DNA from: Prorocentrum cordatum
Taxonomy: Eukaryota
DNA length: 55,911 nucleotides
NCBI GenBank assembly: GCA_963575745.1
Contig: CAUYUJ010000125.1
Coordinates: forward strand, 62,001-117,911
Direction of reading: 5' to 3'
Part shown: positions 18,072 through 54,270 of the stretch, piece after piece
Layout: the number at the start of each line of letters is the position of its first letter
How positions within the stretch are numbered: position 1 is the first letter of the stretch
The notes under the pieces: model-generated
Databases searched by the model: none
Told to the model about the DNA's origin: nothing
What the model saw: the letters and a program-made list of their open reading frames with translations, nothing else
Program-made: the position numbers and the translations under genes

Positions 18072-18334
18072 TAGTCGTCGTGCTCGCCTGTTGTACTGTT
18101 CTGGTCCTATTCTCAGCGTGCAGTCGGGAGTGCGCCTGCACTCGCCAAGTGCTCCCCCGCTCGGCGTGCATCCTGCGTGGTCGGTTCTTAGCGTGCGTCG
18201 GAGAGCTGTTCCACTCGACCCTGCTTAGCGTGCGCGCCCTTGCGCTGCTCAGCGTGTCGGCGGCTTCGGCTTTGCAGGGCCCGACATCACACACACGCGC
18301 TAAGAGTCGGACCGTGGCCGTAAACAGACCAACT

Positions 18335-18429
18335 CGGAGGTCCGCGCGGACGTCTCGGATCGGCGCTGGGCTCCGCGCGCCTGGCAGGGGGGGTCCAGCG
18401 CCGATGCGAGACGCCCGCGCGGAGCTCCG
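18335..18429. mobile_element. MITE-like element family C, copy 1
   Basis: cggaggtccgcgcgga..tcggcgctgg / ccagcgccga..ccgcgcggagctccg; related copies at 46661, 47401 and 47879. Confidence 0.7.
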
Positions 18430-33970: not shown

Positions 33971-36752
33971 TCAGGCAGGGACGCGCACGATTGGTAACTG
34001 CGGAGCGCGGCACGGCACGCTGAACATGTGGTGCCACGCGCTGTGGCCAGAGCTGATAGCTTCGACTGCCGCGGATCGGAGCTTTCTCTGGAACTGTCTC
34101 GCAGAGGGGCAATCGACGAAATGTTGCGGAAGATGCTTGAAAATACACACCACACCGAAAATGGACCTGCACATCATTGGATGCATGCTGGGTTCAACTG
34201 TATCACGCAGCGCCCTGTTGCGCATGCGCCTTACTCCACCAAAGCCGTGGCTTTCCAGGTTGCCCGTCATGGGAGGGAAAAGTGCACAGAATACAGGGGG
34301 AGCGATGCCGTGAGCAACTTTGTGCAACAAGCCTAAGATAGACAAGTCCCGTCTCATACATGCCGGGGCGAGGCTGTAATCACAAAGGGCCTTCTCTTCG
34401 GAGACCCCGAGCGCCTGCAAAAACTCACCCTGCAAGCCGTCTAACGGAGCTAAGACAGTATCAGTTGCATGAAAGATTGCTGGGACTGCGCCGTCCACGA
34501 ATGAGACAACATGGCACTTGAACAGCCTGAAGAGCTCAGCTGTGCTGTAGAACTTGCTAGACCGAAGCAGCGCACGGAGCCGCCAAGAGGCTTCGCGAGC
34601 AAACTCTTGGACGGCACGATACGTGGTCAACCTGGGGTCGAAGAGTACGCCGAGGGTCTTGAAATCGTCCCCGCAGGGCCGGCACTTGTCGAGAATGTGC
34701 CTGCTCTCTGTGGTCGCCTCGAGAATCACCTGGTTGGCCGCGCCACCATTGTGAAGCGTGGACTGGCACTGGCGGCACGCAGCGAGGATAGAAGAATTTG
34801 TGGCCACACCGTCGAGCTCTTTCCAGCAGTTGAGGTCGTCAGCGAAAACGCACTCCGTGAAATCGGCCGCATGCACAGCAAGTTCGGCATCACCATAAAA
34901 CACATCCCACAACGGTGGCCCCAGGACCGTGCCTTGGAGCACCATGTCTTGAAGCGAGAAAGGCTTGGAGAGGAGTCCGTCCACGCTGACATGCGCCTGT
35001 CTCACTGAAAGCCAAGACCGAATGACGTCCAGAAGGGGCGCGCACACTCCCGACGCACGTAATTTAGCCATGAGGCGGTCAGAGTTGACCCTGTCGAACG
35101 CTCCGGCCACGTCCGAGCAGTACACCCCCACGCGCCGACCATTGCAGACAGCACGAATCCAACTACGCACCATGTAATTATGCCAAAGCGTCGCTGTATC
35201 CCCGGTTCGTGTGATAAGCGAATTGGTGGCCCCCGTATGCTCCACTGGTCTCGAAGAAAGGAAGCAGCACGCTAGCAAAGCAACGCTCGACGACTTTGCT
35301 GAGTTGGGATGTGAGGTGAATTCCACGGAAATTCGATGGATTCGAACGCACGTATCTCCTGAACAGCGGGTGCAGCCAATGAAGCTTCCATGATTCGGGC
35401 CACTCGCCGCTATCCAAAATCAAGCGTGCAAGCATGGCAATAGGAGTAGCTAGCTGCGAGGCGCATTTCTTCATAATCCGACATGATAGCCAATCGGGGC
35501 CAGTGCAGCTGTCTTCCCGCAGCCTGCACAGGACACGCGAAACCGCACGGGAACGTATCGGCATGAAGCTGGTCATCGAGAGCGTGCTGCTCATATGTGT
35601 GGAAGAGAACGTGTTGTAGACCTCAGGCGGAAGACCAAACTTATCACTGAAAGTATCTGGGAACATATTGGCCTTACCACGAGCAGACAAGGCCCACGAC
35701 CCACTCTTCGACTGCAGCGGGGGTATACCAACTGACCCCTTGCCAGCACGAAGAAGTAACGAATCACATAATGACCACCATTTCTTGCGCGATGGCCGCA
35801 AGTCCAACATACGCTCCCGAGTTCACTGAACGTACTCGTCGTAATGACGGCGGAGGCCTGCAGAGCACTCGTCCCGTCGACGTTCAAAATTCGGTGTCCC
35901 ATATGCTTCAACTTTTCTCCTGATGAGCTCCACGCACGCCTCGTTGATCCACGGGTGGGTGGACTTCAGGGCGACGGCGGCGAAAGTCGTGATGAACTTT
36001 TTCGCCGTATCGAGAATGCGACCTGTGAGTTTGGTTGCAGCAGCTGTTGCAGAGCAGGATGCGAACAGCGATTTCCAATCCATGTTCTGCAACTCGGCAC
36101 GAAGCTGGGGCCACTATGCATGTTGAAATAACCACTGCTCGCGGACAATTGGTGAAGAACGCTGCACGCGCATGGCAAAAGACACGTGTACCAAATTATG
36201 ATCGTGCTCATTGATGGGCGGGAGGACTTTGCACGACAGGCCGGAAGACACATCCGTCAAGACAAGATCCAACAAATTGTGGCCCCTGGTGGGTTTCCCG
36301 ACTTTCTCCCGTAGGCCCATGCGGCTGCAAGTGTCGAGCAGGACCCGGCCCTCTTTACATGCGCCCTGTGAGGAGAAACGCAACCACTGGCTGTGATGCA
36401 CGTTCATGTCGCCCATAACAATGGTGCCCGCGATCTGATGCTGGTAGCCGCGCCACTCCTCCAATAGACTGTGGATAGTGTGGACCTCTCCCTGCGCAGG
36501 AGGCCGGTACCAAAGAGCTAGCAACATCGGACCGATATTCGTGTGGATTATGTGCCAAGACCGCTCCGCATCAAGAGAATCGCCAACATGGACGACGCAA
36601 TTCTTGGAATATTCACGCGCGAACAATATGATGCCTCCACCTCGTCTGCCGTCGCGGCGGTCGAGGCGCGGTACGACAGTGTAGCCCTGCAACAAAGTTT
36701 CCGTAACAGACCTGTCTGACTAAGACTCGGTGGTTGCCACGATATCGGGCCT
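33971..36752 (-). mobile_element. Degenerate 5'-truncated LINE (APE endonuclease plus reverse transcriptase)
   Basis: APE motifs RPDIVATTES*, RLDRRDGRRGGGI, WYRPP, MGDMNVHH, PTRGHNLLDLVLT, DHNLV (36114-36752). RT motifs TGPDWL, WK, NPSNFRGIHLTS, DVAGAFDRV, QGTVLGP, FADDL, TLGVLFD (33971-35810). Frameshifts and stops split ORF2. Confidence 0.93.
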
Positions 36753-43852: not shown

Positions 43853-44361
43853 GCGCAGGCCGGCGGGGCGCGCTCGGTGCCGCGGCCGCTGCGCTTCCCT
43901 CGTCGCCACGGCGGGGCTCGCCACGAAACCCTGTGTGGCCACCCCTCTGCTCGAGCAGCGGCGGAGCGCCCCGGCGTGCCTAGAATAGTCCTACCGAGCG
44001 GCGTTCTAAGGACCGTTTTTTGCGGCTCCCACGACATGCTCTCAGAGCATTTCTGGTTGGGACTGTCCTGTTTTATCACGTCGGGCTTGTGTTCTGAGAA
44101 CATTGGTTGTTTTTGTTCTTAGAACCTTTTTGGGGTTCTGAGAGCATCTCGTGGTAGCACTACAGGAATGCCGGGACGGTCGGCCCCCGCTCAATTTGCT
44201 TCGCTTTTTCGCACTCTTGGGCCTCGCGGGAGGCCCTCTTGGCCACGGCCACGCTCGCCTCGGGCTCCCGGCCGCGGCGCACTCTCCTCCGGAGGAGCTG
44301 CCGGGGAGCGGGGGCACCCGTGCTCCTCCGGGCGCCTTCTGGGGAGCATCCCTGCAGCATC

Positions 44362-44680
44362 TCGGCACGAGCGGAATGGGTACGGAAAGAATGGGTACGA
44401 TGCCCAGCAGCAGTTCTTGCCCATTCTGAACAGGGCTCGCTGTCGGTGTCGCCGCGGCCTGTGTCCATTCGAGACAGAAGGCCGCCTGCCCAACAGCGGC
44501 CGCCGTTGGTTTGGGACAGCATTTGTTGTTGGGCATTGTACCCATTTTTCCCGTACAGTGCCGTTTTTAATACATGCTCCGCATGCGGATCATGTATTGA
44601 AGATGCAGGGATTTAGCATCAAAAACAACGTTTTTTTGTACGTATCAAACACTGCCCTGTACCCATTTCGGGCGTCCAAA
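44362..44680. mobile_element. TIR element flanked by a perfect 25-bp direct repeat
   Basis: Inverted aatgggtac / gtacccatt motifs (two nested pairs); ttctggggagcatccctgcagcatc at 44337-44361 and 44681-44705. Confidence 0.7.
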
Positions 44681-45756
44681 TTCTGGGGAGCATCCCTGCA
44701 GCATCCTGGAGGGCCCCCGGGGGCCTCCGACCGTCGGCGACGTCTGTGGCAGGCGAGAGGCAGAACACGCATAGAATAGCAGGAAGGAGGCCCACTGCCA
44801 CCACGGAGAAGACGAAGGAAGAGATCTCAGAAGCGAGGGGGGAACTCAGGAGGGGCGGGTCTTCCCCGAGGGCTCGGATGTCCCCCGTCCTTCCAGGAAG
44901 TTCTCCAAGTGTGCCCCGGAGGCGCAGGACACCTCTCAGGAGGAGCCGGGGCTTCTGAGAAGCAGCCGCCGCCTTCCGAGAGGCCGTTTTGCCTCTCCGT
45001 TTCCCCCCTCCGCGCCGCTCGCCGCCGGGATCAGTTTCTGGGCGCCTCTCGGGGGCCTCTCGAGCCCTTCCACGCTCACTGAGCGACCTGGAGTCCCTTT
45101 GGCGTCACCAGAGGAGCGACGCGCACGCCAGGAGATCTCACAGTAATTATGCGCTCGGAGGCGGGCGCGCCGGGTAGCGACACGCTACAAGATGTTGGCA
45201 CGACGTGCTCGGTTCGGACGCACGCTTCCGAGGAGGGCGCGTAGTACTCTTGGCATCGCTCGGACGCGCGCATTTATCCCTCGGCGAGGACCATCGAGGA
45301 GCATCCTGGATCATCTGGCGAAGAAACCCACGCGCGAGACCGAAAAGAGCACAGGGAATGGACGTCCGAGCGATGGCCAGTGCTAGGCTGTCGTTTTGCG
45401 CCCCATTCTCGTTGCACCAGCAGAGCGGCCGTGGAGGCCCGCTCTGGCCCCACCCTGGGCCCACCGAACCCAGGCCCTCGATCGATCCACCTGCCCCACG
45501 CGCCGCGAAGAGCAGGTCATCTCCTGCACCGCCACGCGATGCCCCCCCTCCACGCGCACGGAACGACCCGGATCGCCCAGAGCTCTGGCGTTTTGATGTG
45601 CTCAATGCGGGGTCCGCGGGCGTCTCGACCCACTGCGTGGGACCAGTTTTCCATCCCGAGTCGTTCTTCGGGCCCGGCGAGGGCCTCCAGAGGCCGAAAA
45701 GAACGGCGAAACGCAAAGGTTCTTTCTCAATGCGTTGGATCTCGGAGTGCCCTTTG

Positions 45757-45906
45757 GGGGGCCACAAGCGAAGCCTACCCCTACCTCCCACGAGTTCTGA
45801 GGGGGAGGCTGGGGTTCATTCCGTCTGGGAGCTCCCGAGCGGAGTGAACCCCACCCTCCCCCTCAGAAATCGTGGGGGGTGGGGGTCGGGTTCGCACGTG
45901 GCCCCC
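45757..45906. mobile_element. Palindromic MITE-like element family B, copy 2
   Basis: gggggccac...gggagctccc...gtggccccc; homologous to 4110-4247. Confidence 0.8.
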
Positions 45907-45943
45907 TATCTGTTGCATTTTTGTTTGCGACGTCGGATCTCAG

Positions 45944-45963
45944 GGGTGGGCGGCCACGCGCAG
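45944..45963 (+). CDS. Candidate 20-nt micro-exon of the HEAT-repeat gene
   Basis: CAG|GGG TGG GCG GCC ACG CGC AG|GA; supplies W..TR-R phase-compatible with AAVEAL of the next exon, as in HEAT W.VRRAAVEAL. Confidence 0.35.
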
Positions 45964-46097
45964 GAGCGGCCCTTGGCCGGACGGGGCCTCTGGCGAGCGG
46001 CCTCTGGGCGGCGCGGCGTGGCTCGGTCTCGGCACGCCGGCCGCGCTGCCGGGGTAGGCTTCGCGCGTGGCCCTCTGCCCTTGCGCTTCTCCGGCAG

Positions 46098-46248
46098 GGC
46101 TGCCGTGGAGGCCCTGGGCCAGGCCTCGGAGCGGGGCTGCCCGGAGGTCGTCGCGGCGGTCGCCTCGAGGCTCGCAGACCACGACGCCGCCGTGCGCCAG
46201 GCGGCGTCCGAGGCGGTGGGGCGGCTGGTGCCCAGGGGCGACCGCGAG
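46098..46248 (+). CDS. HEAT-repeat protein exon
   Basis: AAVEALGQASERGCPEVVAAVASRLADHDAAVRQAASEAVGRLVPRGDRE; HEAT/PBS-lyase-like L.D.D..VR.AA..A pattern; CAG|G acceptor, GAG|GT donor. Confidence 0.85.
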
Positions 46249-46421
46249 GTCCTCCTCCTCCTCCTCCTCCTCCTCCTCCTCCTCCTCCTCCTCCTCCCAC
46301 CTGTTGTGGGTGTCAGGCAATTCCGAGGTAATTCCTCCTCCCCCTCCTCCTCCTCCTCCTCCTCCTCCTCCTCCTCCTCCTCCTCCCTCCCGCCCCTCCG
46401 CACCCTACTCCCCACCGCGAG

Positions 46422-46466
46422 GTCATCGCCGCCCTGGCGGGGCTGCTGGACAACCCGAAGCCAGGG
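46422..46466 (+). CDS. HEAT-repeat protein exon
   Basis: VIAALAGLLDNPKPG bridges GDRE and VRESVL with correct HEAT spacing; AG|G acceptor, GT donor. Confidence 0.75.
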
Positions 46467-46660
46467 GTCCTCGGTTCGTTCCGTGTTCCATACGCCTGCT
46501 TGCCTTTCTCGTGGCGCGTGCATTCTCGCGCGCATCACACTGGCCTCTCAAAGAGCGCAGGTTCAAGCGCACATCCTGCACCCTCCCCAACTTCCACGAT
46601 TCCCAAGGGCTCCGGCCCCACCGCGCTGCCGAGCGGGGAGCAAGCAATGACAGCAGCATG

Positions 46661-46809
46661 AGCTTCTGGAGCTCCGCGCGGGTTTTTCGGAGCGGCGCTG
46701 GAGTTCCCCTCTCTGGCGCGAGACGGGGGCGCTGCCAGGGGCTGCGCCGGGGGCGCTGCCAGAGGGCCCCAGCGCCGGTCCGAGAAATCCGTGCGGACCT
46801 CCGAAAGCT
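46661..46809. mobile_element. MITE-like element family C, copy 2 (intronic)
   Basis: agcttctggagctccgcgcgg / ccgtgcggacctccgaaagct TIR with cggcgctgg / ccagcgccg. Confidence 0.7.
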
Positions 46810-46844
46810 GCTGGTTCTGTCATTGTTGGTTCCCCTATACAAGG

Positions 46845-47210
46845 CCTCCCAGATGGGGTCGTTCGGTGGCAGATCATGGGAGCCGTGCGTGGCCTCGAAA
46901 GTCCGCCTTCGGAGTGCAATGGTGCGCGCTAGCGTCTGGTAATCGTTGAGAACGCGCCGGGTTTAGCGTTTTGGCGTCGACTAGCATAGATTAGCGGCGG
47001 TTCGCGTCGATTCGCAAGAGCCGCCAGTGAAGGGTGGGAGTAGATGGGGTCGGAGGGCCGTGCCGCATCGCCGATGCAGCGGCGATGTGGTTCGATGTGG
47101 AGCTCCACTGCCTCCATGCCGACGTCGGTGATGCACCGCCGACGTCGCCGATGCATTGGCGATGCGGCGCGATCCTCCGACCCCAGATGCTCGGACCCCA
47201 TCTGGGAGGT
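46845..47210. mobile_element. MITE-like element family D (intronic)
   Basis: TIR cctcccagatggggtc / gaccccatctgggagg with catcgccgatg internal repeats; related copy at 55629-55840. Confidence 0.75.
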
Positions 47211-47400
47211 CTCTAAAGTGGCGTACACCCTAGGCGATGCTTAAGAAAACTTAAGTTTTCGGCGAGAGTCTCGATTATTCTTAATGTTTCAATGTAAATC
47301 CTAAGATTTTGATAGAAGTTCTGGGTTTTTATTCAAGTTCTGAGACTATGAATTTCTTAACCCATGATTTCTTAAGCATTTCGCAGGGCGTAAGCATATC

Positions 47401-47551
47401 CTTGCAGAGGTCCCGCGCGGATGGCTTGGATCGGCGCTGGGCCCCCTTCCTTGGCGCGCGGAGCGGGCCAGGGGCGGCACCGTCGGGCCGCCCCGTGCGC
47501 CGGGGAGGGGGGCCCAGCGCCGATCCATGCAATCCGCGCGTGGCCTCCAAG
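47401..47551. mobile_element. MITE-like element family C, copy 3 (intronic)
   Basis: cgcgcggat..ggatcggcgctgggccccc / gggggcccagcgccgatcc..atccgcgcg. Confidence 0.75.
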
Positions 47552-47581
47552 AGTGTGTGCTCGTGCAGTCTTCCCTTCCAG

Positions 47582-47840
47582 GTCCGCGAGTCTGTCCTGG
47601 ACACCCTCGCGGGCGTTGCGGAGAAAGGCGACCAGTCCGTGGCCAGCCTCGCGGTGGGCCGGCTGGCGGACGTGGCGCCGGCGGTGCGCATGGCAGCGGT
47701 GAGGACGCTGGCCTGCGTCGCCTGCCAGGGCGACCGCGCCGTGGTCTCCGCCCTCGCGTCCTGGCTTGAGGACCGGGACCCCTGCCTGCAGCAGGCGGCC
47801 CTGAGGGCCTTGGCGCAGTTGGCAGACAAGGCCGACAAGC
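47582..47840 (+). CDS. HEAT-repeat protein exon
   Basis: VRESVLDTLAGVAEKGDQSVASLAVGRLADVAPAVRMAAVRTLACVACQGDRAVVSALASWLEDRDPCLQQAALRALAQLADKADK; pyrimidine tract plus CAG|G acceptor. Confidence 0.88.
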
Positions 47841-48059
47841 GCATCGAAGAAGAAGAAGACGCGGCATGGGCATCAGCTTTCGAAGGTTCGCGCTGATGTC
47901 TCTGATCGGCGCTGGACCCCCGCCCCCCTTGGAGGCACTTCTGGCGGAGCCACCTGGCGCGCGCTCGCTCCGCGCGCCAGGGAGGGGTGCCCTGCGCCCA
48001 TCCACGGAATCCGTGGGGACCTTCGACAGTTCACGCCGATGCTGCTTTTCCTTCTTCCG

Positions 48060-48579
48060 GCATCGTCGGCGCCGTGGCCGCGCGCCTGGGCGGCGAGAAC
48101 CCCTGGCAGATCCGGCAGACCGCGGCGAGCACGCTGGCCGCCCTCGCGCAGAGGGGGGACCAGATGATCATCGGCACCCTGGCGGCGCGGCTGGAGGACG
48201 AGGACTGGCCAGTCCGCGGGGCTGCGCTGGAGGCTGTCGCGAGGTTGGCTCCGAGGGGCGACTCGGACGCGATCGCGCTCATGATGGCCTCCTTGCAGGA
48301 CTGCCTGCCTTACGTGCGCTGCCTCGCGGCAGACTCGCTCGCGGAGCTGGCTCCGCGGGGCAGCTCGGAGGCCATCTCGGCCCTGGCCGAGCGCGTGAGG
48401 CCTGGCGTGGTCGAGCACCCCATGGTGCACAAGCACGCCGCCGCAGCCCTGGAGCGACTCGGGGCAGGCACCGCGGAGTCGTGGCTGCAGCGGCTGCGCG
48501 ACGGGGGCGGGCCAGACCAGGAGGGAGCCGCCGCCGTCAAGTCCTCCACGGCGACCCCGAGCGTGGAGGCCGTGGAGAG
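48060..48579 (+). CDS. HEAT-repeat protein exon
   Basis: IVGAVAARLGGENPWQIRQTAASTLAALAQRGD...RLEDEDWPVRGAALEAVARLAPRGD...LQDCLPYVRCLAADSLAELAPRG; about 39-aa periodicity. 3' end inferred at AG|GCGAGC (48579/48580). Confidence 0.85.
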
Positions 48580-48831
48580 GCGAGCGGCGCAAGCAGAAAC
48601 GGGGCCGGCTGCGGCGCAAACTGCCCGCGCGAGGCCGCGCGTAGGCGCATTCGTTTCCAGAGCAGCGTGCCACGTTGGCGGCCCGAGGAAGCCGCGGCGT
48701 GAGGTCGCTGTGCCATCTCGCGTGCAAGCGAAGGGAAGGCGCCATTCTCGTCGTCGCCGCCGCCGCCGCCGCCGTCGTCGTCGTCGTTGCCGCCGTCGCC
48801 GCCGTCGCCGTCGTCGCCGTCGTCGCCTCAG

Positions 48832-49063
48832 GTGGGAGGCGGAGGCCGCGGCCCCCGGCGGCGAGGCTGCCGCGGAGCTCGCCGGAGAGGAGGCGGCGGA
48901 GGAGCCGCGGGGTGCGCAGGCCGCGGCCGCTGCGGCGCCATCGCCGGCCCCGGGCGCCGCTGCCGCCGTGCAGCTCGGCGCGGAGGGCGGGGCGGCGTGG
49001 CTGCCCCGCGGCGCGCGCTGCGGCGTGTGCGCCAGGAAGATGACGGACGAGCGCGGGGGCGTG
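48832..49063 (+). CDS. Probable downstream exon: Ala/Glu-rich linker and start of a Zn-finger (CGVC)
   Basis: CTCAG|G acceptor, phase-compatible with 48579; WEAEAAAPGGE...WLPRGARCGVCARKMTDERGGV. Donor and following exon not identified. Confidence 0.5.
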
Positions 49064-49077
49064 GTGCCCGCGTCGGG

Positions 49078-49426
49078 GAGGGAGGGGGAGGAGGAGGAGG
49101 AAGAGGAGGAGGAGGAGGAGGAGGAGGAGGAGGAGGAGGAGGGAGGAGGAGGAGGAGGAGGAGGAGGAGGCGGATGAGGCGGAGGAGAGGAGGAGGAGAG
49201 GAGGAGGAGGAGGAGGAGAGGAGGAGGAGGAGGAGGAGAGGAGGAGGGAGGAGGAGGAGAAGGCGGAGGAGGAGGAGGAGAGGAGAGAGAGGAGGAGGAG
49301 GAGCAGGAGGAGGAGGAGGAGAAGGAGGAAAAGGAGTAGGAGGAGGAGGACGAGGGAGGAGGAAGAGGAGGAGGACGAGGCGGAGGGAGGAGGGAGGAGG
49401 GAGGAGGGAGGAGGAAGGGGGGAGGA
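49078..49426. repeat. (GAG)n microsatellite
   Basis: Visible run. Confidence 0.95.
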
Positions 49427-49960
49427 CCATCACAGGCTATGAGGGAAGGCTAAGGCTGGGCCGACCCGACCCTTCAACAATAATCTTGGGTTACATCCGA
49501 TCATCCACTGACGCTCTCTTCGGCCTGTCTCTGCGCCCCTTCCTTGAGGAGCTGAGCTGCAGGGATTGGCTCGGACAGTCGGGGGGCGGCCTAAAGATAC
49601 TTTGGGGGTGTCGGCCACCCGACTAAAGGGCCCAAGCATTCGGGGAACACTTGCTTTGGAAGCTCTCCTTCCATTCACCTCTCTGCGTAGTGGCCTCTGC
49701 CTGGTGGCCTCGCTTCTTGCATGCCACAGTGAAGGACTCAACATCAAGGTAGTCGCACACACAAGGCGCGCTTCTCGGGCGCTCTAATTAGGGTAGAGGG
49801 CAACATCATTTCCTGGGCATGCCTCGAGCATGCCGGACATGTGGGTGCAGTCATACCTGGCTCTTGTGTGGCAGTCCAGGCACAGCCAACACATATTTAG
49901 CCAAACCCATTTGTGCTTGGTCCCCCGCGCTGAGGAGGGAGCAGGAGGACGAGGAGGAGG

Positions 49961-50005
49961 GATGATGATGATGAAAATGGTGATGATGGTGCTGATGATG
50001 CTAAT

Positions 50006-50036
<31 letters not shown>

Positions 50037-50208
50037 CTGGTGCTGATGATGATGCTGGTGATGATGGTGGTGATGATGATACAGATGATGATGATGATGA
50101 GGAGGATGCTGATGCTGATGTTGATGATGATGCCGATGTTGATGGTGATGATGATGCTGCTGATGCTGATGGTGGCGATGCTGATACAGATGATGATGCG
50201 GAGGATGA

Positions 50209-50240
<32 letters not shown>

Positions 50241-50833
50241 AATCTGATGATGCTCATGCTGATGCTGATGCGGATGATGATGCTGATGATGGTGATGGTG
50301 GTGGTGATGATGGTGGTGATGCTGATTATGATGATGATGGAGATGATGATAGTGATGATAATGATGATGATGATGATAATGATGCTGATGGTGATGATGA
50401 TGATGATGATGATGATGAAAATGATGATGATGGTGCGGCTGCTGCTGATGATGATGGTGGCGGTGGTGGTTGTGGTAGTAGTGGTGGGGGTTATGATAAG
50501 GGTGATGCTGATGATGCTGATGATTCTGATGATGATGAACATAATGATGCTGATGATAAGATGGTGATGGCGGTGGTGACGATGATGATGGTGATGATGA
50601 CGATGATGCTGGTGGGAATGATGATAATACAGATGATCAGGAGGAACATGATGATAATGCACATGCTGATTATGCCGATGATGATGAAACCGATGAGGAT
50701 GAAGATGATGATGATGATGCTGATGCTGATTATGATGATGCTGACGATGATGAGGATGGTGGTAGTGATGATGATGCTGATGATGAATATGCTCTTGCTG
50801 ATGTTGATGATGATGTTGATGATGATCATACAC

Positions 50834-50878
<45 letters not shown>

Positions 50879-51083
50879 CTCATGCTGATGATGATGATGA
50901 TGATCATGATTCTGATGATGATGACGATGATGATGATGATGATGATGATGAGGAAGAGGATGCTGATACTGATGATGATGCTGATGATGATGGCGATGAC
51001 GATGGAGCTGATGAGGATGAAAATGATGATGATGCTGATGATGATGCTGATGCGGATGATGATGCTGATGATGGTGATGGCGG

Positions 51084-51115
<32 letters not shown>

Positions 51116-51163
51116 GTGCTGACGGTTATGATAATGATGCTGATGACGATGATGATGATGATG

Positions 51164-51199
<36 letters not shown>

Positions 51200-51219
51200 G
51201 TGCGGCTGTTGAAGATGTC

Positions 51220-51256
<37 letters not shown>

Positions 51257-51556
51257 GCGCGGCTGCTGCTGCTGATGGTGGTGGTGGTGGCGGTTGTGGT
51301 AGAAGTGGTGGTGGTGATGAGGATACGGGTGATGCTGATGATGTTGAGGTTGTCGATATTGATAACGGACATAGGGAAGTTGATGATAATGCGAATGCGA
51401 TGATGATGCTGATGATGGTGATGATGATGATACAGATGATGGTGAGGAGGATGATGGAGATGCTGCTGATGATGATGGTGATGATGCTGAAGCCGATGAG
51501 GATGACGATGGGGATGATGATGATGATGTTGCTGATGCTGATGCTGACTATGATGG

Positions 51557-51588
<32 letters not shown>

Positions 51589-51785
51589 ATGATGCTGCTG
51601 ATGATGATGATGGTGATGATGATGGTTGTGATGATGATCCAGCTGATGATGATGATGATGATGATGATGATGCTGATGATGATGATGATGATGAGCAGGA
51701 GGAGGAAGCTGTTGGTGCTGATAATGCTGATGATGGTGATGATGCTGACGCCGATGAGGATTAAGATGGTGACGATGATGATGCC

Positions 51786-51818
<33 letters not shown>

Positions 51819-52807
51819 ACTGATACTGATGCTGATGCTGATTCTGATGATGCTGATGATGGTGATTGTGGCGATGGTGACGATGATGACGATGATGCTG
51901 ATGATGCTGATGCCTATGATGATGATGATGATGATGACGATGATGATGATGATGCTGATGTTGATGCTGACGATGTTGACGATGATGATGATGATGATGA
52001 TGGTGTGACTGCTGCTGATGATGATGATGATGATGATGGTGCGGCTGCTGATGATGATGGGCATGGTGGTGGTGGTTCTGGTATTTGTGTTGGTGGAAAT
52101 GAGAAGGGTGATGCTGATGAGGTTGGTGATGGTGACGATGATAAAGATGATAGCGACACTGATACTATTGATGGTGATGGTAACGGTGATAACGGCACTG
52201 ATACTATTGATGCTGATGCTGCTGGTGATGATGATGCTCATGCTGATGATGATAATGAAGATGCTGATGCTGATGACGATGCTGATGATGATGGTGATGT
52301 TGGCGACGATGGCGAAGATGATGATGATGAGGATGACGATGCGGATGCTGATTTTGATGATGCTGATGATGGTGATGGTGATGAAGCCGATGAGGATGAG
52401 AATGATGATGACGATGATGATAATGCTGATGCTGATCATGCTGCTGCTGATGGTGGTGATAGTGGTGGTTGTGATGATGATGATGATGTTGATGATGATT
52501 CTGATGATGGTGATGATGATGATGATGATGATGAGGATGGTGCGGCTGCTGCTGATGGTGATCATGGTGAGGCTGCTGCTGATGGTGATCATGGTGGTGG
52601 TGGTGGTTGTGGTAGTAGTGATGCTGGTGATGGTGGTGGTGATGATGCTGATGGTGCTGATGATTATGATAATGATGATACTGACGAGGATGATGGTGAT
52701 GCTGATGATGATGGTGATGATGATGATGGTGCGGCTGCTCCTGATGTTGATGATGATGATGATGCTGGTGCGGCTGCTGCTGATGATGATGCTGATGATG
52801 GTGATGG

Positions 52808-52848
<41 letters not shown>

Positions 52849-52980
52849 GTGCAGCTGCTGCTGATGTTGATGCTGATGGTGCGGCTGATGCTGATGATGT
52901 TGATGATGCTGATGTTGATTATGAACATAATAATGTCCATGATGATAATGCTGCTGTGATGATGGTGCTGATGATGATTG

Positions 52981-53023
<43 letters not shown>

Positions 53024-53359
53024 AATGATGATGATACAGTTGATGGTGAGGAGGATGATGGAGCTGCTGCTGGTGATGATGATGATGAAGCCGATGAGGA
53101 CGACGATGGCGATGATGATGATCATGATGATGATGATGAGGATGATGGTGCTGATGCTGATGCTGATTATGGTGGTGATGAGGATTATGATGATGGTGGT
53201 GGTGATAATGGTGATGATGCTGATGATGATAATGATGGTGGTGATGAGGATGATGGTTGTGATGATGCTCCAGATGCTGCTGATGAGGAGGAGGAGGAAG
53301 CTGATTGTGCTGATAATGATGCTGATGATGGTGATGATGATGACGCCAATGAGGATGCA

Positions 53360-53403
<44 letters not shown>

Positions 53404-54270
53404 GGCTGATGATGATGATGATGATGCTGATGCTGATGCTGGTGCTGATTCTGGTGATGCTGATGATGGTGATTGTGGCGGTGGTGATGCTTATGATGAT
53501 GCTTATGATGATGCTTACTATGATGCTGACGACGATGATGATGATGAGGTTGTTGATAATAATGTTGATGATGTTGATGATGATGGTGATGATGATGATG
53601 ATGATGATGATGGTGCGGCTGCTGCTGATGTTGATGATGATGATGATGGTGCGGCTGCTGATGATGATGGTCATGGTGGTGGTGGTGGTTGTGGTAGTTG
53701 TGGTGGTGGAAATGAAGAGGGTGCTGATGATGTTGGTGATGGTGATGATGATAGCGAAACTGATACTACTGATGATGATGCTGATGATGCTGATGCTGAT
53801 GCTGATGATGATAATGATGATGCTGATGCTGATGACGATGATGATGATGGTGATGGTGGAGATGATGATTCAGATGATGATGAGGAGCATGATGATGCTG
53901 ATGCTGGTTCTGATGATGCTGAGGATGGTGATGGTGATGAAGCCGATGAGGATTAAGATGATGATGATGCTGATAATACTGATGCTGATCATGATGATGC
54001 TGATGATGGTGATAGTGGTGGTTGTGATGATGATGATGTTGATGCTGATTCTGATGATGATGGTGATGATTATGATGGTGCGGCTGCTGCTGATGTTGAT
54101 GATGATGGTGAGGCTGCTGCTGATGGTGATCATGGTGGCGGTGGTGGTTGTGGTAATAGTGGTGGTGGTGATGGTAAGGGTGATGCTGATGAGATTGATG
54201 ATGCTGACGATGCGAATGAAAATAGTAACTTCTGATGATGCTGATGCTGATGATGACGATGCTGATGCTC

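What the first reader, a model, noticed from the sequence alone, without database searches (positions are those of the whole stretch)
47841..48059. HEAT-gene intron with GC...CG ends that folds as one long imperfect palindrome
Seen: HEAT periodicity requires ADKR-IVGAV, joined across a GCATCG direct repeat (47841-47846 / 48060-48065). The best register is GC..CG, with no AG after the pyrimidine tract. The intron start gaagaagaagaag..cggcatgggc is roughly complementary to its end gccgatgctgcttttccttcttc, and a family C MITE (47879-48026) forms the core. An in-frame TGA (47894-47896) blocks read-through. Inference: a TIR element that became an intron, or a non-AG acceptor that is tolerated or edited.
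Basis: partly seen in the sequence, partly recalled or inferred. Interest (0 to 1): 0.75.

Follow-up and report, generated by a model that had tools for sequence, protein, structure and literature searches.

The report
Whole foldback transposon removed from mRNA
A 219-base hairpin-forming jumping-gene remnant sits in the coding part of a HEAT-repeat gene and is missing, to the base, from the messenger RNA although it has no normal intron end, which hints at an unusual way of removing introns but is not yet proven to happen at the RNA level.

Summary
47841-48059 is 219 nt (73 codons) with in-frame stops. It is bounded by the direct repeat GCATCG and folds into one long imperfect hairpin (z -5.65, 0 of 200 shuffles).

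It is a complete foldback MITE. Three more copies of the core lie in the window, and one relative with the same AAG/CTT outer arms lies in a metagenome contig.

cDNA contigs from 3 of the 4 runs I laid, from three studies, skip exactly these 219 nt. The same contigs skip the neighbouring GT..AG intron, so they are cDNA. None of the 16 runs holding at least half of the probe's sampled words holds more than the exon-only share (0.69-0.73).

None of the seven possible cut registers ends in AG; the best is GC..CG. In my search window, 59 frame-keeping G[T/C/A]..AG alternatives exist, including GT47886..AG48029, and the contigs use none.

Best reading (about 0.5): an old MITE plus one target-site copy is removed from the RNA as a non-AG intron, with the hairpin bringing the ends together, as in Amoebophrya introners.

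Not excluded:
- transcription from an empty allele or paralogue (about 0.2);
- a wrong or private base at 48058, giving plain GC-AG (about 0.15);
- reverse-transcriptase jumping (about 0.05).

No DNA reads and no genome were available. The organism was not identified; a large-genome dinoflagellate fits best.

The parts
47841..48059 (+). Stretch missing from mRNA (219 nt; register 0 = GC..CG; the true cut may lie up to 6 nt to the right)
   Evidence: joint 47840->48060 in contigs of X1, X10 and X14, both=6; registers
47841..47846 (+). Left copy of direct repeat GCATCG (target-site-duplication-like)
48060..48065 (+). Right copy of direct repeat GCATCG
47847..47879 (+). Left outer arm of the foldback element, starting (AAG)4; 33 nt up to the core anchor TCGAAGG
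   Evidence: same arm in metagenome copy L004
47880..48026 (+). Palindromic core shared with three other copies in the window (TCGAAGGT...ACCTTCGA)
48027..48059 (+). Right outer arm; holds a branch-point-like TTCAC (48030-48034) and the pyrimidine run CTGCTTTTCCTTCTTCC, and ends in CG
   Evidence: motifs read directly from the sequence
47894..47896 (+). First in-frame stop (TGA) if the stretch is retained
47582..47840 (+). Upstream HEAT exon, 0 differences from the cDNA contigs
48060..48579 (+). Downstream HEAT exon, 0 differences from the cDNA contigs
47831..47836 (+). Exonic GCCGAC predicted to pair with GUCGGC at 48065-48070, extending the stem into both exons
   Evidence: prediction only
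46249..46421 (+). Neighbouring GT..AG intron (173 nt) lying inside an 11-nt direct repeat ACCGCGAGGTC
   Evidence: sequence; loose end of X10 at 46414
46467..47581 (+). Neighbouring GT..AG intron (1115 nt, 5-nt repeat GGTCC) holding two copies of the same repeat family
   Evidence: joint in X1, X10 and X14
48580..48831 (+). Neighbouring GC..AG intron (252 nt)
   Evidence: loose end at 48580 matched to the sequence at 48833

Best explanation
An old, degenerate foldback MITE of about 213 nt, with (AAG)n/(CTT)n-ended inverted arms, inserted into a HEAT-repeat coding exon and duplicated its target (GCATCG, or GCAT plus two chance letters).

The element plus one target copy is now removed from the pre-mRNA as an intron. 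Its 5' end fits the relaxed G-C/T/A rule of this genome. Its 3' end is not AG. The long stem, which continues into both exons, places the two repeat copies opposite each other.

I think it most likely that the spliceosome does the cutting. The right arm supplies a pyrimidine tract and a YUNAY-like TTCAC 26 nt upstream, and the hairpin may offset the missing A at -2. A spliceosome-independent, structure-guided cut and ligation, as proposed for euglenid nonconventional introns, is the second possibility.

Shown: the element, the repeat, the predicted fold, and exact absence from cDNA. Inferred: that removal happens on RNA from this locus, and which machinery does it.
For: - Contigs of X1 (polyA RNA), X10 and X14, from three studies, join 47840 to 48060 with 0 mismatches over 260+521 nt. 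Each of those contigs also skips the 1115-nt GT..AG intron, so they are cDNA.
- 15 runs hold 0.73 and one holds 0.69 of the probe's sampled words. My arithmetic for an exon-only holder is 720/1011 = 0.71. No run holds more.
- In the contig runs (X1, X10, X14), depth in 47835-47909 is only what the 6 exonic bases give. Depth is zero in the unique bins 46485-46709 and 46860-47009 of the neighbouring canonical intron. The stretch therefore behaves like the other introns.
- 59 frame-keeping G[T/C/A]..AG alternatives exist and none is used.
- The copy looks old. Its arms are only 66% alike, against 69-81% for the other copies, and it is 72-80% like its relatives. Yet the flanking exons are intact and identical to the mRNA. 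That is hard to reconcile with a null allele or a decayed pseudogene.
- The relative L004 ends ...CTTCTTCGA, so the family carries no built-in AG at that end.
- Left end CG.. and right end ..CG are what inverted-repeat symmetry predicts for 48058 = C.
- The fold is far beyond chance.
- All four RNA-supported introns of this gene are bracketed by repeated letters (11, 5, 6 and 2), which suggests insertion-type intron origins here.
- Precedent: Amoebophrya non-canonical introners have 8-20-nt inverted repeats and 3-5-nt direct repeats (PMC7789003, passages and section 11 read).
Against: - This is one locus only.
- No DNA run of the organism was served, and no genome is held. An empty site in DNA and the identity of base 48058 could therefore not be checked.
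- Contigs show presence, not absence, of rare forms.
- The only raw-read run (X23) had a depth of about 1 and no junction reads.
- Apart from -2, the 3' end looks like a standard acceptor (pyrimidines, then C-C-G|G against C-A-G|G). That is what a single wrong or mutated base would give.
- A 3' CG is, from recalled knowledge of second-step chemistry, a very poor spliceosomal acceptor.
- The age argument assumes the copy was near-palindromic when it inserted.
Confidence: 0.5

Rival explanations
1. Insertion polymorphism or paralogy. The assembled copy carries a MITE insertion that kills the reading frame, and the mRNA comes from an uninterrupted allele, strain or near-identical paralogue. 'Element plus one target copy missing' is then simply the empty site.
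For: The skipped stretch is exactly what an empty site lacks. No run holds the filled form. A transcript with in-frame stops could be degraded and stay unseen. Large protist genomes hold many duplicated genes (PMC10666404, passages).
Against: The element is degenerate (arms 66% alike; 72-80% to relatives). The 781 nt of flanking exon are identical to contigs from three studies and keep the frame. An old disrupted copy should have drifted, and a recent insertion should look young. No second copy of the exons lies in the window. Single unbranched contigs of 869-1997 nt argue against several expressed variants.
Confidence: 0.2
2. Ordinary GC-AG introner. Base 48058 is A in the transcribed DNA (an assembly error, or a private A-to-C change in the assembled individual). 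The target copy then gives the GC donor and the element end gives ...TTCAG|G, as in Symbiodinium-type introner-like elements.
For: One base separates the 3' end from a textbook acceptor behind a 17-nt pyrimidine run, with G after the cut as in the three neighbouring introns. GHNN target copies serving as the 5' site with the element end as the 3' site are described for dinoflagellates (bioRxiv 10.1101/2020.10.14.339549, first part of the text read). An oddity picked out by scanning is enriched for errors.
Against: Inverted-repeat symmetry (left end CG) predicts C, not A. The relative L004 has no AG at that end either. The exons match the RNA at 781 of 781 positions, so this part of the assembly is accurate and the RNA source is close to the assembled strain.
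Confidence: 0.15
3. Reverse-transcriptase template switching. The mRNA keeps the hairpin, and the enzyme jumps between the two GCATCG copies at its base during library making.
For: Short direct repeats at the foot of a stable hairpin are the classic setting for this artefact (recalled from the literature, not read here).
Against: No intron words beyond the exon-only share in any of the 16 runs holding at least half of the probe's words. Zero depth on the unique arm 47841-47909 in the contigs of three studies. Fragmented-RNA libraries should still give reads running from exon into the arm. A retained form would encode a truncated protein.
Confidence: 0.05

Closest known systems
Non-canonical introner elements of Amoebophrya A25/A120 (Farhat et al. 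2021, PMC7789003)
   Same: Non-GT-AG ends, inverted repeats at both intron ends that form a hairpin joining the exons, short direct repeats across the exon/intron borders, repeated family, and no transposase inside.
   Different: Here the direct repeat is 6 nt (theirs 3-5). The whole 213 nt is one foldback. Only 1 of the 4 RNA-supported introns in this gene is non-canonical (theirs more than 60%). The window is gene-poor and repeat-rich, unlike their compact genomes. Family motifs such as TAT... were not compared in detail.
Introner-like elements of Symbiodinium and Polarella (Roy et al., bioRxiv 10.1101/2020.10.14.339549)
   Same: [quoted passage not shown] The element terminal letters at +5/+6 pair with the last two intron letters.
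   Different: Their elements end in AG (CT...AG). This one ends in CG (CG...CG), so the defining canonical 3' site is missing.
Nonconventional introns of euglenids (Milanowski et al.; review PMC11282704)
   Same: Non-canonical borders, end-to-end pairing, TSD-like repeats at the borders, and a suspected MITE origin.
   Different: The CAG/CTG pairing at +4..+6 / -8..-6 is absent here (TCG / TTC in register 0). A pyrimidine tract is present here, and euglenid ones lack it. Whether the excised RNA is circular is unknown.
Identically repeated intron boundaries of dinoflagellates (Mendez et al. 2015, PMC5032977)
   Same: 2-9 identical letters at both borders, found once in the mRNA. The four introns here have 11, 5, 6 and 2.
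   Different: Their repeats always contain GG, often AGG, at the splice point. GCATCG does not.
Non-canonical introns of Fritillaria borealis (Henriet et al. 2019, known to me only through review PMC11282704)
   Same: MITE-derived introns with non-canonical ends, removed by an adapted spliceosome.
   Different: An animal lineage with different end motifs. Not compared by sequence.

Membership tests
U2-type spliceosomal intron (GT/GC/GA..AG flavour of this genome) | 5' end G followed by T, C or A | tested here: met
   Register 0 starts GC and register 5 starts GA.
U2-type spliceosomal intron (GT/GC/GA..AG flavour of this genome) | 3' end AG | tested here: not met
   None of the 7 registers ends in AG. 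The three neighbouring introns all end AG|G.
U2-type spliceosomal intron (GT/GC/GA..AG flavour of this genome) | Pyrimidine tract and branch-like motif before the 3' end | tested here: inconclusive
   CTGCTTTTCCTTCTTCC, and TTCAC 26 nt upstream, are read. The tract is also simply the complement of the (AAG)n arm.
Introner / introner-like element | Member of a repeated family with inverted ends and a target duplication | tested here: met
   3 further core copies in the window. 1 of 6 metagenome loci (L004) has the same outer arms. The 6-nt repeat is adjacent to both ends.
Introner / introner-like element | Intron = element plus one target copy, removed from mRNA | tested here: met
   Joint 47840->48060 in 3 of the 4 laid runs. 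That this happens at the RNA level is not shown.
Introner / introner-like element | Canonical splice sites supplied by the element and/or the target copy | tested here: not met
   The 3' end is CG. L004's matching end is GA.
Introner / introner-like element | Many copies across the genome that each make up a whole intron | not testable with these tools
   No genome is held. The other 3 window copies do not each make up an intron: two lie inside a larger intron, and the setting of the one at about 18.3 kb is unknown.
Amoebophrya-type non-canonical introner | Non-canonical ends, plus 8-20-nt inverted repeat at the intron ends, plus a short direct repeat across the borders | tested here: met
   GC..CG; 13-nt arms 85% complementary, with 7 perfect pairs at the base; 6-nt repeat against their 3-5 (PMC7789003 section 11).
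Euglenid nonconventional intron | CAG/CTG-type pairing at +4..+6 and -8..-6; no pyrimidine tract | tested here: not met
   +4..+6 = TCG and -8..-6 = TTC in register 0. A pyrimidine tract is present (criteria from PMC11282704).
Euglenid nonconventional intron | Excised as a full-length circular RNA after the conventional introns | not testable with these tools
   No reads of the excised RNA.
Bulge-helix-bulge (tRNA-endonuclease type) intron | Two 3-nt bulges separated by a 4-bp helix at the cut sites (criterion recalled) | tested here: not met
   The predicted fold has AUC loops on both strands, separated by only a 2-bp GC/GC helix with further unpaired letters opposite.
RT template-switch artefact | The unskipped form is the real, abundant RNA | tested here: not met
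   No intron words beyond the exon-only share in the 16 runs with at least half of the probe's words. Zero depth on the unique arm.

The most novel reading that the evidence does not exclude
A free-living, large-genome marine protist (probably a core dinoflagellate) has an AG-independent, hairpin-guided pathway that removes whole foldback transposons plus one target copy from mRNA. So far this is documented only for parasitic Amoebophrya and, in another form, for euglenids. It has been missed because annotation pipelines accept only ..AG acceptors. If so, MITEs could land in exons harmlessly and become introns at once, whatever the target sequence.
Probability: 0.35. Interest if true: 0.8.

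Novelty: new member of a known kind. Interest (0 to 1): 0.55.

Why it matters
If removal is at the RNA level, this locus is a clean example of a transposon becoming an intron without supplying or finding a canonical 3' splice site.

That bears on how intron-rich protist genomes gained their introns, and on how strict the 3' AG rule really is. It would also mean that gene models in such genomes, built with AG-only rules (PMC10666404 methods), miss or distort a class of introns.

If instead it is an empty-allele effect or a base error, the finding is ordinary. It then serves mainly as a warning about reading splice oddities from one assembly.

Tried and rejected
- **Whole genome:** none is held, so no genome-wide count of family copies that form introns.
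- **Organism:** not identified. A protein search with the downstream exon (longer proteins) gave 4 hits, best 30% identity. The LINE reverse-transcriptase ORF gave 94 hits, none carrying an informative name. 4 NCBI clusters looked up carried no names. Rfam found 0, tRNA search 0, and the dinoflagellate spliced-leader motif 0 matches at up to 3 mismatches. Pfam on 150 of 166 long ORFs found only HEAT and a LINE.
- **Amoebophrya as the source:** considered and thought unlikely, because its genomes are compact and transposon-poor.
- **Metagenome scans:** a 30-nt exon word gave 0 hits. A scan with the palindromic core gave 6 loci; 5 are unrelated chance palindromes and 1 (L004) is a relative.
- **Raw-read run X23:** depth about 1, no junction reads, nothing at 48058.
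- **Other cases in the window:** a script scan for hairpins with flanking repeats gave 27 candidates, mostly weak. Only this element and 45755-46075 were convincing. An earlier version of the script timed out.
- **Mechanisms considered and dropped:** nested (twin-intron) splicing through GT47886..AG48029 would leave 75 nt that still has GC..CG ends. U12-type does not fit (register 2 is AT..GC with no ATATCC-like start). Bulge-helix-bulge does not fit the fold. An IRE1-type site was not seen by eye and was not formally tested.
- **Earlier notes of this scan:** 4 look-ups found nothing on this genome or this repeat.
- **Literature:** searches turned up no report of TIR-bounded non-AG introns in core dinoflagellates or haptophytes. 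That covers only the open-access library searched. The supplement of PMC10666404 mentions introner elements only within annotated, canonical introns.

Full report
**What is in the sequence**

The + strand of 45.2-49.2 kb carries a HEAT-repeat gene, with Pfam HEAT_2/HEAT hits in three ORF pieces. The frame that starts at 47582 reads ...LADKADKRI. It then runs into 47841-48059, where it meets TGA at 47894-47896 and a second stop two codons later. It comes out in the same frame as ...GIVGAVAARLGGEN, because the stretch is 219 nt, or 73 codons.

GCATCG stands at 47841-47846 and again at 48060-48065. Among all positions 44000-48300, a 219-nt skip has 6 or more ambiguous letters at 14 of 4300. Window-wide the rate is 5809 of 200000, inflated by tandem repeats.

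The stretch is a long imperfect palindrome:
- The 13-nt arms GAAGAAGAAGAAG / CTTTTCCTTCTTC are 85% complementary.
- The whole stretch aligns to its own reverse complement at 64.5%.
- Arm against arm gives 71 matches, 20 mismatches and 16 gaps.
- As RNA, 47831-48075 folds at -133.1 kcal/mol against -104.3 +/- 5.1 for shuffles (z -5.65, 0 of 200). The stem closes with GAAGAAG/CUUCUUC, then a GC/GC pair of the two repeat copies, and then exonic GCCGAC (47831-36) with GUCGGC (48065-70).

**It is one complete mobile element**

The core 47871-48022 matches three other places in the window at 72-80%: 47408-47536, 46706-46813 and 18334-18429. The family consensus is a near-perfect palindrome.

A metagenome scan with the core palindrome gave 6 loci. 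Five are unrelated. One (L004) is a relative that also has the outer arms: AAGAAGAAG... on the left and ...CTTCTTCGA on the right. Its arm lengths show the same 33/30 asymmetry as here. So the (AAG)n/(CTT)n ends belong to the element, and 47847-48059 is a whole foldback MITE flanked by a target-site-like repeat.

Two copies cannot fix the length of the target duplication. Here it could be 6 nt, or 4 nt (GCAT) plus the element's own first CG. L004 has a 5-nt repeat, TACCC, set 3 nt out from the arms.

**What the RNA shows**

A run search with 47560-48600 listed 20 rows holding part of the stretch. Fifteen hold 0.73 and one holds 0.69 of the sampled words, and none holds more. By my arithmetic an exon-only holder should have 720/1011 = 0.71.

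I laid four runs on 46410-48650. Contigs of X1 (polyA RNA), X10 and X14, from three studies, join 47840 to 48060: 'skips 219, GC..CG, both 6'. They show no mismatch or gap over 260 and 521 nt of exon. Each of those contigs also skips the 1115-nt GT..AG intron (46465 to 47581), so they are cDNA.

Loose ends in the same call, matched to the window, give two more introns: 46249-46421 (GT..AG) and 48580-48831 (GC..AG).

The fourth run, raw reads of X23, had a depth of about 1 and no junction reads. It says nothing either way.

In the contig runs, depth in bin 47835-47909 equals only what the six exonic bases contribute. The unique parts of the canonical intron are likewise at zero. The stretch therefore behaves like the gene's other introns.

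**Why it is odd**

None of the seven registers allowed by the repeat ends in AG. They are GC..CG, CA..GG, AT..GC, TC..CA, CG..AT, GA..TC and AA..CG.

I searched donors at 47780-47899 against AG acceptors ending at 47990-48124. Fifty-nine pairs of G[T/C/A]..AG keep the frame open. They include GT47886..AG48029 (144 nt) and GC47841..AG48029 (189 nt). The contigs use none of them.

The 3' end otherwise looks standard. It has TTCAC 26 nt upstream, a 17-nt pyrimidine run, then C-C-G|G. The three neighbouring introns have ..AG|G.

**Readings**

(1) *RNA-level removal of a transposon-derived, non-AG intron (about 0.5).*
- For: the cDNA evidence above.
- For: the copy is degenerate, yet it sits between exons that are intact and identical to the mRNA.
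- For: L004 lacks AG at the same end.
- For: CG...CG ends are what inverted-repeat symmetry predicts.
- For: the exon-joining stem.
- For: a published precedent in Amoebophrya, where more than 60% of introns are non-canonical and many have 8-20-nt inverted and 3-5-nt direct repeats (PMC7789003, passages and section 11).
- On machinery, I lean to a tolerant spliceosome because of the tract and the branch-like motif. A euglenid-like separate pathway (review PMC11282704, passages) remains possible.

(2) *Empty allele, strain or paralogue transcribed (about 0.2).* The missing piece is exactly what an empty site lacks, and I had no DNA reads. The old-looking element between pristine exons argues against it.

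(3) *48058 is really A, giving a plain GC-AG introner of the Symbiodinium type (about 0.15).* There, the GHNN target copy gives the 5' site and the element end gives AG (bioRxiv 10.1101/2020.10.14.339549, first part read). Only one base stands in the way. Symmetry and L004 argue for C.

(4) *Reverse-transcriptase jumping (about 0.05).* The setting is right, but no run keeps the unjumped form.

**Context**

All four RNA-supported introns of this gene are bracketed by repeated letters: 11, 5, 6 and 2. This echoes the 'identically repeated intron boundaries' of dinoflagellates (PMC5032977, passages).

I could not identify the organism. Several traits fit a large-genome dinoflagellate: GC of about 60% overall and 66-69% in the gene, GC and GT donors, AG|G acceptors, boundary repeats, a LINE, and very few recognisable genes in 56 kb. 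Prorocentrum cordatum is one example, with 59.7% GC in the genome and 65.9% in genes (PMC10666404, passages). A GC-rich haptophyte such as Emiliania is not excluded; it has 56-65% GC donors and 100% AG acceptors in the curated set (PMC4028052, passages). This assignment is inference.

My four literature searches found no report of TIR-bounded non-AG introns outside Amoebophrya, euglenids and Fritillaria. The P. cordatum study looked for introner signatures only inside introns modelled with AG acceptors (methods and supplement).

**Verdict**

The interpretation 'TIR element turned intron with a non-AG end' is the best reading but is not proven. It rests on one locus, with no DNA control. I file it as a probable new member of the known class of transposon-derived non-canonical introns, of moderate to good interest.

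Noticed in passing
window 46241-46251 and 46414-46424: An 11-nt direct repeat, ACCGCGAGGTC, brackets the 173-nt GT..AG intron 46249-46421. The intron is filled with (CTC)n runs and is not palindromic. The GT and the AG both lie inside the repeat, suggesting intron birth by insertion or duplication at an AGGT site.
   Followed up: partly
window 45748-46082: A second, unrelated TIR element (about 45755-46075). Its ends GGGGGCCACAAGCGAAGCCTACCCC / GGGGTAGGCTTCGCGCGTGGCCC are flanked by a 7-nt repeat, TGCCCTT. It lies just upstream of the acceptor of the exon that starts near 46098.
   Followed up: partly
window 33974-36719 (- strand): A LINE-like retroelement: reverse transcriptase (RVT_1, E 1.7e-7) and an endonuclease domain (Exo_endo_phos_2, E 2.1e-9) in separate ORF pieces. 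The best database relative is 81% identical, and none of the 94 hits carries an informative name.
   Followed up: partly
window about 49800-54000: About 4 kb of low-GC (44-45%), strongly G-over-C skewed (0.64-0.65) simple repeats. On the - strand they read as long His/Ile/Ser runs. (GAG)n/(GGA)n arrays lie at 49080-49420, directly after the HEAT gene.
   Followed up: no
window 47473-47508 and 46783-46807 / 47966-47987: RNA contigs and raw reads match pieces of the repeat copies with small differences (for example, 34 nt replaced by one A). Other copies of this family are therefore transcribed elsewhere in the genome.
   Followed up: no
L004 168-364: A metagenome contig (1258 nt) carries a better-preserved, more A/T-rich relative of the element. 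By my hand count from the sequence, its outer arms match at about 26 of 33 positions. Compared with it, both arms of the window copy carry many A-to-G/C differences, some on both sides of a predicted pair.
   Followed up: partly
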